DNA from: Escherichia virus TH15
Sequence record: MT446392.1
DNA: 64,000 bases
Strand: one strand, 5' to 3'
Positions 2,723 through 52,041 of the stretch are shown here, one piece after another. The translations under genes and the position numbers were made by a program. The notes below the pieces were generated by a model. It did not search any database. It was not told where the DNA came from and worked only from the letters and a program-made list of their open reading frames with translations. Position 1 is the first letter of the stretch. Each line of letters begins with the position of its first letter.

Positions 2723-2752
2723 GTTTTACTTCCAAGTGGGATAGTGTATAAT
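2723..2752 (+). promoter_or_regulatory. T4-type early promoter
   Basis: -35 GTTTTACT, -10 TATAAT, followed by conserved leader. Confidence 0.55.
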
Positions 2753-2794: not shown

Positions 2795-3238
2795 ATGAAA
2801 ACTTCAAAACTGGTTAAGTACGTTAAACTGGCATTAAACAACTCTTCTGAAGCTGAAGCGCAATCCGCAGCGCGTATGTTCTTCAAACGTCTGACAGCTG
2901 AAGGTATTTCATTTAACCCGGCAGTATTTGGTATCACTCGTGGCGAAGCTGCTAAACTGGCAACTCTGGCAGGTAAAATTTTTAAAGGTCTGAATGATGG
3001 ACAGGTTAAACCAGAAGTTAAACCTACTCCTAAAGCTGAACCAAAAGCTGAGTGTAAGGCACCTAAACGCTCCGGTATGAGCAACAAAGATTTATGCTAT
3101 GATATGTTCAAAACTGTTAATATGTCTAATGGTGCTGCTCGCAGAGCTGTTATTGATATGATTGTGCGTGAGTTTGGATTCAACAAAGCATCAGTTCAAT
3201 CTTATGCTTCCAACTTCCGCAAAGAATTTGAAATTTAA
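2795..3238 (+). CDS. hypothetical protein (paralog of 2286..2711)
   Basis: ATG at 2795 after GGGATAATAAA; track ATG 2744 lies inside promoter. Confidence 0.6.
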   Translation: MKTSKLVKYVKLALNNSSEAEAQSAARMFFKRLTAEGISFNPAVFGITRGEAAKLATLAGKIFKGLNDGQVKPEVKPTPKAEPKAECKAPKRSGMSNKDLCYDMFKTVNMSNGAARRAVIDMIVREFGFNKASVQSYASNFRKEFEI

Positions 3239-3280: not shown

Positions 3281-3319
3281 GATTCCATACTGAGTTACCA
3301 AATAAAACTGGAGAATAAA

Positions 3320-3625
3320 ATGAAATTCATCATCAACCTGGCGCTTGTTGACTTTGATAAAACTGGTAATTTCGCATCTGCTGAAAATATGATTCGCAAC
3401 ACTAAGTTCAAAGTGCAAGTCCAGCAGGCGGTAGCAAAAGAGTTCTTTACTGATAAATTAACCCACGTTGTCAATCACCTGAATGTGCAAGTTAAATTCA
3501 CTCGTAAAGCAGAAACTACAGTTGAATTTGATTTTGAATGTCGTTACCATGATGAATATGTTCGCCGCATCCTTAATATTGTATCTGATGAACTTTACTA
3601 TGGTGTGCAGGAAAACAAAATCTAA
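3320..3625 (+). CDS. hypothetical protein
   Basis: 101-aa ORF with GGAGAATAAA SD. Confidence 0.55.
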   Translation: MKFIINLALVDFDKTGNFASAENMIRNTKFKVQVQQAVAKEFFTDKLTHVVNHLNVQVKFTRKAETTVEFDFECRYHDEYVRRILNIVSDELYYGVQENKI

Positions 3626-10148: not shown

Positions 10149-10904
10149 ATGAATTATCTAAAAATATATGAATCTTTAATAGTATCTGCTATTAAAAGAC
10201 CTCTTACACAAGGATACACCGAAAAACATCATATTTTACCGAAATCGATGGGTGGTAATGATTCTATTGATAATTTAGTTACCCTTACCGCCCGTGAACA
10301 TTTTATTGCACACTTATTATTGGCAAGAATTTTTAAGAATCGCGAAATGTGGTCCGCTGCATATATGATGGCTTCAACAAGTCTAACTAACTCGGATAGA
10401 CATAGATGCTCGTCACATTTATATGAATTATTGCGTAAACAAGCGTCGGTATATAATTCAGGTGAAAATTCTCCAAATTGGGGAATAAAACGTTCTGAAG
10501 AAACACGATTAAAAATGTCAATTTCAAAAATGGGTATCAGGAATCCAATGTACGGTATTCCACAATGTTTGGAACACTCTCATAAAATTAGCCTTGGTGT
10601 TACCGAAGCTTTTAAAAATCCAGAAATGAAAGAACGCCACCGTCAAAGTGTTTCTGGAGAGAATAATGGGTTTTATGGAAAAAAACATTCCGAAAAAAGT
10701 TTGGAAAAACAGCGGAATACAAAACGGAAAGGATTTCCTTGGGACAATTATTTGGAATTGTACCCAATTTGGGTTTCATTAAATTGCCCCAAGCATCCAA
10801 CATTCACAAATGAACTTGTTAAATTGGGATACCCCAAAAAGAAGCTTGTTCGAATAGTGGAAGAGTTTAAAAATGAATATATTCGAAATGCTACGCATAG
10901 ATGA
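10149..10904 (+). CDS. HNH homing endonuclease
   Basis: HNH motif [31 protein letters not shown]; inserted between nudE and e. Confidence 0.8.
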
Positions 10905-11361
10905 AGGTTGTAAATTAGATTTGTATAAAGATACCGAGGGGTACTATACCATTGGTATCGGGCAACTGATAACTAAGAACCCATCGAAAGATGTTGCTCG
11001 TGCCGAGCTCGACAAGCTCATGGGTCGCGTCTGTAATGGTCGCATAACCCAGCACGAAGCTGAAACATTGTTTAACCGTTCGGTCGAAAAAGCTAAAGCC
11101 GGAATATTGAGGCATCCTGTCTTAAAACCTGTTTATGATGTACTGGATGAAGTTCGTCGTTGTGCACTCATTAATATGGTATTCCAGATGGGTGTTGCCG
11201 GGGTTGCTGGTTTTCCTAAGGGACTGCGATTGCTCAAGGCCAAATCGTGGGAAGCTGCTGCTAAGGAACTGGCGGACTCAAGATGGTATAAAGTCCAGAC
11301 TCCAAACCGGGCCAAACGAGTTATTGAAACTTTCCGTACTGGAACTTTTGACGCTTATTAG
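10873..11361 (+). CDS. e: lysozyme (T4 gene e endolysin)
   Basis: Near-identity in N-terminal [12 protein letters not shown]...[13 protein letters not shown] to T4 lysozyme. Confidence 0.95.
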
Positions 11362-11390
11362 TTTACATCTCCAAACGATAGGGTTATAAT
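11361..11390 (+). promoter_or_regulatory. T4-type early promoter
   Basis: -35 GTTTACA, 17-nt spacer, -10 TATAAT. Confidence 0.65.
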
Positions 11391-11416
11391 GACCCTATCA
11401 ACTACGGAGAACAAAC

Positions 11417-11833
11417 ATGACTCGCATTAATTTAACCCTGGTATCTGAACTTGCTGACCAACACCTTATGGCTGAATACCGCGAGCTTCCTCGCGTGTTT
11501 GGTGCTGTTCGTAAGCATGTGCAAAATGGTAAAAAGGTGTCTGACTTTAAAATCCCATCATCTTTTCTTTTAGGAACTGGTCATGTCACCTTCTTTTATG
11601 ATAAGCTTTTGTTCCTTAAAAACCGTCATCAAGAACTTATTGCTGAATGTTTAAAGCGAGGGTTTAATATAAAAGATATTTCTACCCAAGATTTAAATGA
11701 TATTCCTGATGAATGGAAGAATGATTATCAACCATCAATCTGGTCAATTGAAATCAGTCAATCCAGACTGAATGAGAAAATTTCTCAAAAGCCTACCTGG
11801 TACAAATACTATGGGAAAGCTGTGTACGCTTAA
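11417..11833 (+). CDS. denV: pyrimidine dimer DNA glycosylase (endonuclease V)
   Basis: [34 protein letters not shown] matches T4 DenV. Confidence 0.95.
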
Positions 11834-11851
11834 CTAAAAAGGTTGTATAAT
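11822..11851 (+). promoter_or_regulatory. T4-type early promoter
   Basis: -35 GTGTACG, 17-nt spacer, -10 TATAAT. Confidence 0.65.
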
Positions 11852-11881
11852 GATTTTATCAACCAAACAATGGAATATAAA

Positions 11882-12145
11882 ATGAAAACTTATCAAGAAT
11901 TTATTACTGAATCTGCCAAAGCTCCTGCTGGTTCCTTTAAAGTCCGTGCCTTCGCTGGTGATGCTGAAGACTTTGGCTCACTGAAGCGCAACGGTTATTC
12001 TTTCTTTGGTGGTGATGGTAAAGAAATTGTTACCTATGCAAAACGTCGCGAAATCGCATTCGTGGTTGCTGGTAAGAAAGTATCCCCAGAAGATATTGAA
12101 GTTGACTTTGAGACCTTTGGTATTGTTTCTGGCGGTAAAGCTTAA
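11882..12145 (+). CDS. internal-protein-like (capsid targeting sequence)
   Basis: Starts MKTYQEFITE, matching the T4 internal-protein capsid targeting sequence MKTYQEFIAE. Confidence 0.6.
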   Translation: MKTYQEFITESAKAPAGSFKVRAFAGDAEDFGSLKRNGYSFFGGDGKEIVTYAKRREIAFVVAGKKVSPEDIEVDFETFGIVSGGKA

Positions 12146-12147
12146 CT

Positions 12148-12176
12148 GTTTACTTTATGATGGGATAGTGTATAAT
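12148..12176 (+). promoter_or_regulatory. T4-type early promoter overlapping the next start codon
   Basis: -35 GTTTACT, 16-nt spacer, -10 TATAAT whose last bases form the ATG at 12175. Confidence 0.55.
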
Positions 12177-12474
12177 GTTAACTTATCAAGAATTTATCAC
12201 AGAAGCCAAAGTTCCTAAAGCATTTCAAATTGGGGTTCAAGGCAATTTAGACCAACAATATGTTGATGCTATTGTAGCAAGCCTCGGTAAACAAGGGGTG
12301 CAAGTGGATTTGGTTGATTTTACCAAAGGCAATACTTTTAATATTGTTACATCTAAAGGTTCTTTAGCTAAAGTTAAAAAGGCCTTTGGCGTAGCACAAG
12401 CATACGAAATCGACCATTCTGAATTCGAAAATAAAGGTCGCCAGAACACAATTAAAGGCTCTGGTTCTTTTTAA
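12175..12474 (+). CDS. internal-protein-like (capsid targeting sequence)
   Basis: Starts MLTYQEFITE; paralog of 11882..12145. Confidence 0.55.
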   Translation: MLTYQEFITEAKVPKAFQIGVQGNLDQQYVDAIVASLGKQGVQVDLVDFTKGNTFNIVTSKGSLAKVKKAFGVAQAYEIDHSEFENKGRQNTIKGSGSF

Positions 12475-12570
12475 TAAAGGCAAACCGACCCTCTCCTCAT
12501 GAACGTCGTGTCCTCTGAGTGATGGACCTTTCCCTACCTGTAATAAGGTCGAGCCCGAGTGCGGTAAGGG

Positions 12571-12600
12571 GTTTACATTCGGATACATGGATGAATTAAT
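12571..12600 (+). promoter_or_regulatory. possible early promoter
   Basis: -35 GTTTACA, 17-nt spacer, weak -10 ATTAAT. Confidence 0.4.
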
Positions 12601-12638
12601 GTGCCAAGGAATGGCCCCAAAACCTTAAGAGAAACAAT

Positions 12639-13184
12639 ATGAGAACTTTTTTAACTGGACCTTATCTATCCCTGATGAATGCTTTTACCCACCATTCTGA
12701 TGCTCGAATAGAAGAACTTTGTAAGACCGATTGTTATATTCCTCCAATGGAAGTCTTGCTCAAAGAATACTGCACACTCCGTATGGATGGCGGGCGACAA
12801 TCAGGTAAATCTACTGCAGTAACTAATTTTGCTGCTAACTGGATTTATGACGGAGGTACAGTAATTGTCCTGTCTAATACCTCGGCTTATGCAAGAATTT
12901 CATCCGATTCTATCAAAAATGATTTTATTCGTTTTAGCGCGGAAGATATTCGTTACCGGCTTTTCCATGATTCATTACGTAGCTTTATCGGTAATAAAGG
13001 TTCTAAATTCCGTGGCCTTGCGCTTTCACGCGTATTGTATATAATTGATGAACCTATTAAAGCTCCTGATATGGACAAGATTTACGATATCCATATGAAA
13101 ACTGTACAACACTGCTGCCATGCTCATTGTTTTAAAACGGGTGAAACAGTTCGTCCTCAATTTTTTGTGATTGGAATGCAATGA
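12639..13184 (+). CDS. small P-loop NTPase
   Basis: Walker A GGRQSGKST and Walker B VLYIIDEP. Confidence 0.65.
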   Translation: MRTFLTGPYLSLMNAFTHHSDARIEELCKTDCYIPPMEVLLKEYCTLRMDGGRQSGKSTAVTNFAANWIYDGGTVIVLSNTSAYARISSDSIKNDFIRFSAEDIRYRLFHDSLRSFIGNKGSKFRGLALSRVLYIIDEPIKAPDMDKIYDIHMKTVQHCCHAHCFKTGETVRPQFFVIGMQ

Positions 13185-13537
13185 TGAATACTATCGAAGT
13201 TTTTGAATATTGTTATAGCAGCTCCGCTTGTAATAAAAAGGCCCTCGTAGAAAACTATGAGATATTCCATTTTAAACCTAAACGGTATCGTTTGACTAAA
13301 GGTCCATTCAAGGGACAACAGGTTCTCTGTACCGCACCAAATGAACGTCTGATGAATATCATTCCATATTTCAAAATGGAATTCATTGGCAGACGTTATA
13401 AAGGGCTAATCACTCAAAGCCTGATGGCTTATGGCTCTGATCCGATTTTGATGGAACAAACCGAATTTAAAAAGTTTTATACAGGTTCAGCCGTTTTAGC
13501 TGAACCTAAAGGCTTTACGGTGGCCCATCATGGCTAA
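13181..13537 (+). CDS. hypothetical protein
   Basis: 118-aa ORF, ATGA overlap. Confidence 0.55.
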   Translation: MMNTIEVFEYCYSSSACNKKALVENYEIFHFKPKRYRLTKGPFKGQQVLCTAPNERLMNIIPYFKMEFIGRRYKGLITQSLMAYGSDPILMEQTEFKKFYTGSAVLAEPKGFTVAHHG

Positions 13538-51688: not shown

Positions 51689-51854
51689 GATTTCGGTCTT
51701 CCAGATTTTTGAAGAATATGAAATCGTGTCGCAAGACCAAGAAGCAATCCATGTTATCGCTGATGATGGTGTTACCTGGATTATTCCATTGTATCATGAA
51801 GACACTTATGAAGTGACTGATGCAAATGGTGATAAAGCTATCTTCGTTGTATAA
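51663..51854 (+). CDS. hypothetical protein
   Basis: 63-aa ORF. Confidence 0.4.
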   Translation: MSAMCTGSKISVFQIFEEYEIVSQDQEAIHVIADDGVTWIIPLYHEDTYEVTDANGDKAIFVV

Positions 51855-51857
51855 ATA
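51850..51857 (+). promoter_or_regulatory. T4-type late promoter TATAAATA
   Basis: Exact TATAAATA 17 nt upstream of ATG 51874. Confidence 0.45.
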
Positions 51858-51873: not shown

Positions 51874-52041
51874 ATGAAAACATTCAAAGATTTTATAAAC
51901 GAAGATATGGTTGCAGGTGATGCAGGTGGAAACCCAACTAATATCGCAACAGGTACCACTTCCGGGGCAGTTGTCAATAAAGGCCCTGAACAAATCCCAT
52001 CAAAAAAGCGTAAGAATAAAGACGATAAACCTACAGTATAA
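51874..52041 (+). CDS. small protein with capsid-targeting-like N-terminus
   Basis: 55 aa starting MKTFKDFINED after GGAAAGGGGG SD; below track cutoff. Confidence 0.4.
   Translation: MKTFKDFINEDMVAGDAGGNPTNIATGTTSGAVVNKGPEQIPSKKRKNKDDKPTV

What the first reader, a model, noticed from the sequence alone, without database searches (positions are those of the whole stretch)
11882..12474. Internal-protein-like genes; one start codon is fused to a promoter -10
Both ORFs begin M(K/L)TYQEFITE, matching the T4 internal-protein capsid targeting sequence. For the second, the promoter -10 TATAAT (12171..12176) overlaps the ATG at 12175, so a transcript from that promoter would start downstream of the ATG. 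Either the gene is translated only from read-through transcripts, or a promoter cassette was inserted at the start and the true start lies elsewhere.
Basis: partly seen in the sequence, partly recalled or inferred. Interest (0 to 1): 0.45.

Follow-up and report, generated by a model that had tools for sequence, protein, structure and literature searches.

The report
Internal-protein gene behind a truncated promoter cassette
Two ordinary T4-type "internal protein" genes sit here, and the odd overlap of one start codon with a promoter is the scar of a 30-base deletion inside a known mobile promoter cassette, not a new kind of gene control.

Summary
ORFs 11882-12145 and 12175-12474 start MKTYQEFITE and MLTYQEFITE. 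A perfect early promoter, GTTTAC-N17-TATAAT (12148-12176), overlaps the second ATG.

The window is a VR7-like T4-type coliphage (Gaprivervirus). The ORFs are VR7ORF127c and ip7, both annotated internal head proteins.

Relatives explain the overlap:
- VR20, P479, CJ20 and TH44 carry a complete promoter-early stem-loop cassette (PeSL) at this spot: promoter, hairpin around the -10, GGAG Shine-Dalgarno, then ATG.
- The window, VR7 and VR25 lack 30 nt between two TA(T/A)AAT hexamers. That removed the 3' hairpin arm, the start-site region and the SD, ending exactly at the native ATG.
- Codon 2 (TTA) comes from a small neighbouring IP gene still present in TH44, lost by recombination between targeting-sequence repeats.

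So no cassette was inserted, and the start codon is the native one. Inferred only: transcripts from this promoter lack the AUG, so IP7 can be made only from upstream transcripts.

Low interest: a variant of a known kind.

Noticed in passing, and more interesting: 12473-12626 is a conserved, covariation-supported, pseudoknotted RNA. It lies upstream of vs.8 in over 1000 phage genomes, T4 included, and has no Rfam family.

The parts
11361..11390 (+). Intact PeSL-type early promoter upstream of denV. The layout is GTTTAC-N18-TATAAT, a hairpin GATAGGGT/GACCCTATC around the -10, SD GGAG at 11406-11409, and ATG at 11417. It is the likely source of read-through transcripts covering both IP genes.
   Evidence: hairpin fold -20.3 kcal/mol
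11417..11833 (+). denV (endonuclease V), the gene that precedes the IP cluster
11822..11851 (+). Degenerate cassette remnant in front of ORF1: GTGTAC-N18-TATAAT. GCTTAA lies 12 nt upstream of the -10 and looks like a MotA box. This is a candidate weak or middle promoter by inference only.
   Evidence: sequence read; identical in VR7, TH40 and TH44
11882..12145 (+). Internal head protein gene, orthologue of VR7ORF127c and similar to RB69 ORF125c. The targeting sequence MKTYQEFITE is encoded at 11882-11911. The body is a divergent allele, 91.7% identical to VR7.
12148..12176 (+). Truncated PeSL. The -35 GTTTAC (12148-12153), the 17-nt spacer and the -10 TATAAT (12171-12176) are intact. Everything downstream of the -10 as far as the ATG is deleted.
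12159..12167 (+). Orphan 5' arm (GATGGGATA) of the PeSL stem-loop. Its partner TATCCCATC is present in VR20, P479, CJ20 and TH44 but missing here.
   Evidence: fold -4.4 here versus -20.4 to -21.0 kcal/mol in relatives
12175..12474 (+). ip7 internal head protein gene. The targeting sequence MLTYQEFITE is encoded at 12175-12204. Codons 1-2 (ATG TTA) derive from a neighbouring small IP gene of the TH44 type, and the rest is a TH40-type ip7 allele.
12473..12626 (+). Adjacent element, outside the finding: a conserved pseudoknotted RNA just upstream of the vs.8-like gene. Any transcript from the truncated promoter would run into it.
12639..13184 (+). vs.8-like P-loop protein gene (phrog_1488), the next coding gene downstream of the truncated promoter

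Best explanation
The locus is the internal-protein (IP) cluster of a VR7-like T4-type phage. In relatives, ip7 is preceded by a complete promoter-early stem-loop cassette (PeSL). That cassette consists of GTTTAC-N17-TATAAT, a 9-bp hairpin whose loop holds the -10, a GGAG or GAGGAG Shine-Dalgarno sequence, and then the ATG.

In the lineage of this window, VR7 and VR25, two rearrangements occurred. These steps are shown by comparison.
1. A 30-nt deletion between the -10 hexamer TATAAT and the look-alike SD-to-ATG spacer TAAAAT. It removed the 3' hairpin arm, the normal transcription start region and the SD. It ended exactly at the native start codon.
2. A crossover between the nearly identical targeting-sequence coding repeats of a small neighbouring IP gene (ATG TTA ACT TAT..., still present in TH44 and TH41) and ip7. 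This removed that gene and left Leu at codon 2.

The consequences are inferred, not measured.
- The promoter hexamers are untouched, so E. coli sigma-70 RNA polymerase should still initiate about 6-9 nt past the -10, near 12182-12185, inside codons 3-4.
- Those transcripts lack the AUG and cannot make IP7. They serve only as a leader into the downstream structured RNA and vs.8.
- IP7 can be translated only from transcripts that start upstream, at the denV PeSL (11361-11390) or the remnant at 11822-11851. Those transcripts now pass unhindered because the attenuator hairpin is gone.
- The residual GGGA, 8 nt before the AUG, gives an SD pairing of -4.0 kcal/mol. That is no weaker than the SD of other IP genes that lack their own cassette.

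The arrangement therefore behaves like a cassette-less downstream gene in an IP operon, with a leftover promoter embedded in its start.
For: Identity of the locus:
- The region is 96.6% identical to VR7, with denV, IP genes and vs.8 annotated there.
- Both ORFs hit phrog_2667.

The deletion:
- An alignment of the window and VR7 against VR20, P479 and CJ20 shows 27 extra nt in the relatives, containing TATCCCATC and GGAG.
- TH44 reads ...GTGTATAAT[TATCCCATCAACTACTGAGGAGAATAAAAT]GTTAACTTATAAAGAATTT.... Removing the bracketed 30 nt reproduces the window's sequence as far as codon 4. TH44 then has ip7 with ATGAAAACTTATCAAG.
- The hairpin folds at -20.4 to -21.0 kcal/mol in relatives and -4.4 here.

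The start codon:
- It is positionally identical in all ip7 orthologues, and TH40 has the same ip7 allele with an ordinary upstream region and Lys2.
- SD pairing energies: fused ip7 -4.0, P479 -6.4, TH44 small IP gene -9.2, TH40 ip7 -0.9, VR7ORF127c -2.9, window ORF1 -3.3 kcal/mol.

The promoter class:
- 4 sites observed against 0.02 expected, all on the + strand. Two other cassettes in this window (2724, 11361) keep the hairpin.
- No terminator-like site lies on the + strand between 11496 and 13018.
- No TATAAATA late promoter lies between 1570 and 17438.

Persistence and precedent:
- The fused junction sits in two different backgrounds. The window has a divergent ORF1, no ip10 and a TH40-type vs.8, whereas VR7 and VR25 differ.
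- In T4, each IP gene has its own PeSL-like early promoter 60-70 nt upstream, and ipI, ipII and ipIII are 'early-RNA, late-protein' (PMC9697503 supplements).
- The PeSL definition and its role in shuffling come from PMC2839356 and PMC4122927.
- T4 deletes readily between short microhomologies (PMC9391042).
- Position 2 of the targeting sequence was among those tested by suppression. Targeting maps mainly to residues 4 and 7 and processing to residues 8 and 10 (PMC9026906). Both sets of residues are intact here.
Against: - No transcript 5' ends and no virion proteome are available for VR7, VR25 or this phage, so promoter activity and IP7 expression are both untested.
- The sequence from the -10 to +1 has changed, which could alter promoter strength.
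- The TH44-like ancestor and the order of the two events are inferred. No intermediate carrying only one event was found.
- Only three genomes carry the junction. Their ip7 genes differ by at most 3 codons, so purifying selection since the deletion cannot be demonstrated.
- The gap between the ORF1 stop and the ATG is 29 nt, longer than the 8-13 nt seen at other cassette-less IP junctions.
Confidence: 0.75

Rival explanations
1. The overlap is a selected regulatory design. Nesting the promoter in the start codon ensures that early transcripts made here feed only the downstream RNA and vs.8. IP7 synthesis is then tied to longer upstream transcripts and freed from RegB cleavage of a GGAG Shine-Dalgarno.
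For: - The junction is retained unchanged in two different genomic backgrounds.
- The deletion removes the GGAG that RegB would target.
- The hairpin that would attenuate read-through is gone.
- T4 IPs are 'early-RNA, late-protein'.
Against: - Only 3 of several hundred related genomes have it.
- Most relatives keep the full cassette or an ordinary junction.
- The endpoints look like a simple slip between two look-alike hexamers.
- No independent recurrence was found in IMG/VR.
Confidence: 0.12
2. ip7 is effectively silenced here and is a recently crippled accessory gene on its way to decay. It lost its own 5' UTR and SD, and IPs are dispensable on many hosts.
For: - The strong SD was lost, from -6.4 or -9.2 to -4.0 kcal/mol.
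- The gap to the upstream stop codon is 29 nt.
- T4 IPs are non-essential or host-specific (PMC9026906 table; PMC9391042).
- The clade is small and young.
Against: - The ORF is intact in all three genomes, with 2 synonymous and 0-1 non-synonymous differences.
- Other IP genes with equally weak or weaker SDs are maintained under clear purifying selection: TH40 ip7 at -0.9, and 17 synonymous versus 0 non-synonymous codon changes between TH44 and CJ20.
Confidence: 0.1
3. One reading: a promoter cassette was inserted at the gene start, and the true start lies elsewhere.
For: PeSLs are mobile cassettes. The ATG lies inside the -10.
Against: - Relatives have the same cassette plus 27-30 more nt, so the window has a deletion and not an insertion.
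- The ATG aligns with every orthologue's start.
- An in-frame TAG lies 7 nt upstream, and there is no other Met in the protein.
- The targeting sequence must be N-terminal.
Confidence: 0.03

Closest known systems
T4 internal proteins IPII and IPIII, and the annotated VR7 genes ip7 and VR7ORF127c
   Same: They share the 10-residue N-terminal capsid targeting sequence ending in I-x-E and a small size. They sit next to denV and e, and they belong to phrog_2667. The ip7 protein is 100% identical to VR7 Ip7.
   Different: The mature parts are unrelated to T4 IPII and IPIII, which is usual for this hypervariable family. Residue 9 is Thr instead of Ala. ip7 has Leu2 instead of Lys2.
PeSL (promoter-early stem-loop) cassettes of T4-type phages (Arbiol et al. 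2010, PMC2839356; Comeau et al. 2014, PMC4122927)
   Same: It has the same sigma-70-like early promoter and the same position between small variable genes. The same cassette is complete in close relatives, and this locus shows gain and loss of flanking genes (ip10, the small IP gene).
   Different: This copy has lost the 3' stem arm, the transcribed leader and the SD. It no longer meets the stem-loop or SD parts of the definition, and its -10 overlaps the start codon.
T4 genes e, soc and I-TevI, where early read-through transcripts cannot be translated but late transcripts can (own knowledge, not checked here)
   Same: Which promoter a transcript starts from decides whether the gene can be translated.
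   Different: In those genes the ribosome-binding site is sequestered in a hairpin on the longer transcript. Here the shorter transcript would simply lack the AUG, and the longer one is the translatable form.

Membership tests
T4-type internal head proteins | N-terminal capsid targeting sequence resembling MKTYQEFIAE | tested here: met
   MKTYQEFITE and MLTYQEFITE compared with T4 ipII and ipIII MKTYQEFIAE
T4-type internal head proteins | Prohead-protease (gp21) processing determinants at targeting-sequence residues 8 and 10 (I/L-x-E) | tested here: met
   I8-T9-E10 is present in both proteins. The determinants are taken from PMC9026906. Cleavage itself was not tested.
T4-type internal head proteins | Sequence-family membership | tested here: met
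   phrog_2667 'internal head protein', E = 5.3e-21 and 1.8e-41. No Pfam family exists for these proteins.
T4-type internal head proteins | Packaged in the head and injected with the DNA | not testable with these tools
   Needs virion proteomics of this phage or of VR7.
PeSL cassette | Sigma-70-like early promoter (-35 and -10 hexamers) | tested here: met
   GTTTAC-N17-TATAAT at 12148-12176. The class has 4 sites against 0.02 expected.
PeSL cassette | Stable stem-loop between the -35 and -10 or overlapping the -10 | tested here: not met
   Only the 5' arm remains. The fold is -4.4 kcal/mol, against -20.4 to -21.0 in P479 and TH44.
PeSL cassette | Shine-Dalgarno sequence and start codon at the 3' end | tested here: not met
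   The GGAG or GAGGAG SD is deleted and only the ATG is retained.
T4 late promoter | TATAAATA upstream of the gene | tested here: not met
   The nearest + strand sites are at 1570 and 17438.
Any Rfam family (for the adjacent RNA at 12473-12626) | Covariance-model match | tested here: not met
   No match at E<=10 in the window, or at E<=5 in four variant loci.

The most novel reading that the evidence does not exclude
The truncated cassette is not debris. It is kept as the early promoter for the element immediately downstream, a previously undescribed pseudoknotted RNA (12473-12626) followed by vs.8. The body of ip7 doubles as its untranslated leader, and IP7 is made only from longer upstream transcripts. 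The RNA itself would be a new phage RNA class. It is conserved in over 1000 T4-type and Vequintavirus genomes and is hidden in T4 under an over-extended vs.8 annotation.
Probability: 0.25. Interest if true: 0.6.

Novelty: new variant of a known kind. Interest (0 to 1): 0.25.

Why it matters
For the finding itself, the importance is small. It is a clean, base-resolved example of how IP loci are reshuffled. Crossovers occur between the 30-33-bp targeting-sequence repeats, and a slip occurs between look-alike hexamers inside a promoter cassette. It is also a caution for annotators: a consensus promoter overlapping a start codon does not mean the start is wrong. It offers a natural experiment, VR7 or VR25 against VR20 or P479, on what a PeSL contributes to IP dosage. 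The adjacent RNA could matter more. It is a widespread structured element in the best-studied phage family and has no known function.

Tried and rejected
- Pfam gave nothing for either IP.
- Rfam gave nothing in 11300-13300 or in four related loci.
- A single-sequence fold of 12472-12640 was unremarkable, z = 0.01. Only comparative analysis revealed the structure.
- IMG/VR scans for the fused junction, for a one-event intermediate, and for any targeting-sequence gene fused to TATAATG found only VR25. The other hits were chance matches, or a TAATG stop/start overlap without a -35 (L009-L016, L018, L019).
- The small IP gene of TH44 exists only in TH44 and TH41 in the phage collection.
- T4 rnaC and rnaD are not related to the RNA element.
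- Bacterial genome representatives hold no true copy of the RNA.
- A literature search on 'ip7' returned inositol-phosphate papers. The VR7 genome paper is not held. No paper describing the RNA was found. The catalogue in PMC10690425 could not be checked for it.
- A possible internal GTG start (Val44, preceded by AAGGGG) for a targeting-sequence-less fragment was considered. It was left as unsupported speculation.

Full report
**What is there.** The region is 96.6% identical to Escherichia phage vB_EcoM_VR7 (Gaprivervirus, Tevenvirinae). In VR7 the gene order is nudE, e, denV, ip10, VR7ORF127c, ip7, vs.8. The window has e (10873-11361), denV (11417-11833), ORF1 (11882-12145, the ORF127c orthologue), ORF2 (12175-12474, ip7) and a vs.8-like gene (12639-13184). 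ORF1 starts MKTYQEFITE and ORF2 starts MLTYQEFITE. T4 ipII and ipIII start MKTYQEFIAE. Both ORFs hit phrog_2667 'internal head protein', and Pfam has no model for them. The first 10 residues of T4 IPIII are sufficient for capsid targeting. Targeting depends mainly on residues 4 and 7, and processing on residues 8 and 10 (PMC9026906). All four residues are conserved here. The identification as internal proteins is therefore sound, and it is already made in the VR7 record.

**The promoter overlap is real and not a chance match.** GTTTAC (12148-12153), a 17-nt spacer and TATAAT (12171-12176) are present, and the ATG is at 12175. The exact pattern GTTTAC-N16-18-TATAAT occurs four times in the window, all on the + strand, against 0.02 expected. 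An in-frame TAG at 12166-12168 and the absence of any other Met leave 12175 as the only possible start for a protein carrying the targeting sequence.

**Where the overlap comes from.**
- The same junction in VR20, P479 and CJ20 is 27 nt longer: GTTTACTTT(A/T)TGATGGGATAGTGTATAATTATCCCATCAACTTGGAGAGAATAAATGAAAACTTATCAAG. This is a promoter-early stem-loop cassette (PeSL) as defined by Arbiol et al. and Comeau et al. It has a sigma-70-like early promoter, a stem-loop overlapping the -10, and then an SD and start codon.
- The hairpin GATGGGATA/TATCCCATC folds at -20.4 to -21.0 kcal/mol in relatives. The window keeps only the 5' arm, which folds at -4.4.
- Two other cassettes in this window (2724-2752 and 11361-11390) have the complete form.
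- TH44 has the complete cassette followed by AACTACTGAGGAGAATAAAATGTTAACTTATAAAGAATTTATG.... This is a 66-aa extra IP gene starting MLTYKEF. After it comes ip7 with ATGAAAACTTATCAAG.
- Removing the 30 nt TATCCCATCAACTACTGAGGAGAATAAAAT from TH44 gives GTGTATAATGTTAACTTAT, exactly as in the window. The endpoints lie in the -10 TATAAT and the spacer TAAAAT, which share the last three bases.
- A crossover within AACTTAT, between the targeting-sequence codons of the small gene and those of ip7, then yields ATGTTAACTTATCAAGAATTTATCACA. This explains Leu2.
- TH40 carries the same ip7 allele (98.3% identical) directly after ip10, with an ordinary upstream region and Lys2. So the ATG at 12175 is the native, orthologous start.
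- The absence of ip10 in the window and in P479 is explained the same way. In VR7, ip10 and ORF127c begin with an identical 33-nt repeat.
- The fused junction occurs only in VR7, VR25 and this window among 50,697 phage records and IMG/VR. No intermediate was found.

**How it most likely works (inferred).**
- The hexamers and spacer are untouched, so host RNA polymerase should still initiate roughly 6-9 nt beyond the -10, at about 12182-12185, inside codons 3-4. Such transcripts lack the AUG and cannot encode IP7.
- No terminator-like site follows before vs.8. These transcripts would therefore carry the ip7 body as a leader into the downstream element and vs.8.
- IP7 must be translated from transcripts starting upstream, most plausibly at the complete cassette in front of denV (11361-11390).
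- No late promoter TATAAATA lies anywhere nearby. This agrees with T4, where each IP gene has its own early promoter and ipI, ipII and ipIII are classed 'early-RNA, late-protein'.
- Loss of the hairpin removes the attenuator that PeSLs place in front of read-through transcription.
- The residual GGGA, 8 nt from the AUG, pairs with the anti-SD at -4.0 kcal/mol. That is weaker than the lost GGAG or GAGGAG (-6.4 and -9.2). It is stronger than the sites of IP genes that normally lack a cassette: TH40 ip7 at -0.9, VR7ORF127c at -2.9, and ORF1 here at -3.3.
- ip7 therefore now resembles an ordinary downstream gene of an IP operon.
- The deletion also removed the GGAG that RegB endoribonuclease targets in early mRNAs (abstract of PMC1702504). 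Whether that matters is unknown.

**Is the gene still in use?** Across phages, ip7 is under strong purifying selection. TH44 and CJ20, for example, differ at 17 synonymous and 0 non-synonymous codons. Within the fused clade there are only 2-3 differences, too few to judge. The junction plus ip7 is 99-100% identical between the window and VR7. In contrast, ORF1 is only 91.7% identical, ip10 is absent, and the downstream vs.8 is the TH40 type. The arrangement has therefore survived recombination into a second background and is at least tolerated.

**Verdict on the finding.** The genes are known, and the overlap is a deletion scar in a known cassette type. The 'inserted cassette, different start' reading is rejected. 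The 'read-through only' reading is favoured but unmeasured. This is a new variant of a known kind and of low interest.

**Side observation: a conserved structured RNA.** The 164-nt non-coding stretch after ip7 is conserved in 1023 phage records. These include Gaprivervirus, Dhakavirus (JS98 and JS10), Tequatrovirus, Karamvirus, and Klebsiella and Yersinia T4-likes. A shorter core is also present in Vequintavirus.
- I proposed a structure by hand on an 11-sequence alignment and built a covariance model from it.
- Every hit with E<=1e-6 lay on the sense strand.
- On 33 distinct sequences, 94.4% of cells pair and 14 of 33 pairs show compensatory changes. No shuffle out of 500 did as well, and slid controls reached 20-45% pairing with at most 5 such pairs.
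- RNAalifold on that alignment independently returns helices P1, P2, P3 and P5.
- A pseudoknot that was not part of the model pairs in 30 of 30 sequences. It joins window 12485-12487 with 12580-12582. Its middle pair uses all four Watson-Crick types: CG 16, UA 10, AU 3, GC 1.
- Invariant U-G pairs fit the + strand only.
- No Rfam family matches, and no true copy exists in bacterial genome representatives.
- In T4-type phages the element ends 5-17 nt before the ATG of a vs.8 homologue, with two exceptions where an ip7-like gene follows.
- T4 itself carries it at NC_000866 64810-64941 (minus strand), inside the annotated 5' end of vs.8. T4 vs.8 is annotated at 219 aa, against a 177-position family profile. 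That annotation is probably over-extended and hides the element.
- In Vequintavirus the element lies upstream of a TTGACA-N17-TAAAAT promoter, so it is not simply a vs.8 leader.
- Its function is unknown.

Noticed in passing
window 12473-12626 (+): A conserved, pseudoknotted structured RNA candidate lies between ip7 and the vs.8-like gene. It is present in 1023 phage records, covering T4-type genera including T4 itself, and its core is also in Vequintavirus. Covariation supports it: 14 of 33 pairs are compensatory, and a pseudoknot left out of the model pairs in 30 of 30 sequences with all four Watson-Crick types. It has no Rfam family and no true copy in bacterial genome representatives. Helices in window coordinates are listed below.
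- P1: 12476-12480 with 12527-12531
- P2: 12532-12538 with 12563-12571
- P3: 12547-12549 with 12553-12555
- P4: 12575-12578 with 12599-12602
- P5: 12603-12605 with 12613-12615
- Pseudoknot: 12485-12487 with 12580-12582

   Followed up: yes
L003 (T4 NC_000866) 64810-64941, minus strand: The T4 vs.8 CDS (219 aa as annotated) starts 132 nt upstream of the start conserved in other phages (MRTFLTG...). It therefore covers the RNA element. The family profile is 177 positions long, and the frame is closed in the window. The T4 start is probably over-extended.
   Followed up: partly
L034 8965-9229; L021 471-629 (-) and L046 1022-1150 (-): One metagenomic T4-like contig carries two tandem copies of the RNA element. 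Several Klebsiella phage records annotate small minus-strand 'hypothetical proteins' on top of the element, and these are probably spurious.
   Followed up: no
window 11882-11914 versus L001 (VR7) 2983-3015 and 3311-3343: ip10, present in VR7, VR20, VR25 and TH40, is absent from the window and from P479. In VR7, ip10 and ORF127c start with an identical 33-nt targeting-sequence repeat, which is the likely crossover site for gaining or losing ip10.
   Followed up: partly
window 10149-10904 (+): An HNH homing-endonuclease gene (phrog_655, E = 1e-54) sits between nudE and e, and its end overlaps the start of e by 32 nt. VR7 has no gene at this position.
   Followed up: partly
window 51874-52041 (+): A third N-terminus resembling the targeting sequence (MKTFKDFINED..., 55 aa, phrog_1823) is preceded by a canonical late promoter TATAAATA (51850-51857). 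It is presumably a small prohead-core protein in the head-gene cluster. Unlike the two IP genes, it has a late promoter.
   Followed up: partly
window 11878-11883: A weak -10-like TAAAAT also overlaps the ATG of ORF1 (a 9/12 promoter match). It is simply the conserved AATAAAATG spacer between SD and ATG found in PeSLs. The same look-alike hexamer served as the right endpoint of the 30-nt deletion at ip7.
   Followed up: partly
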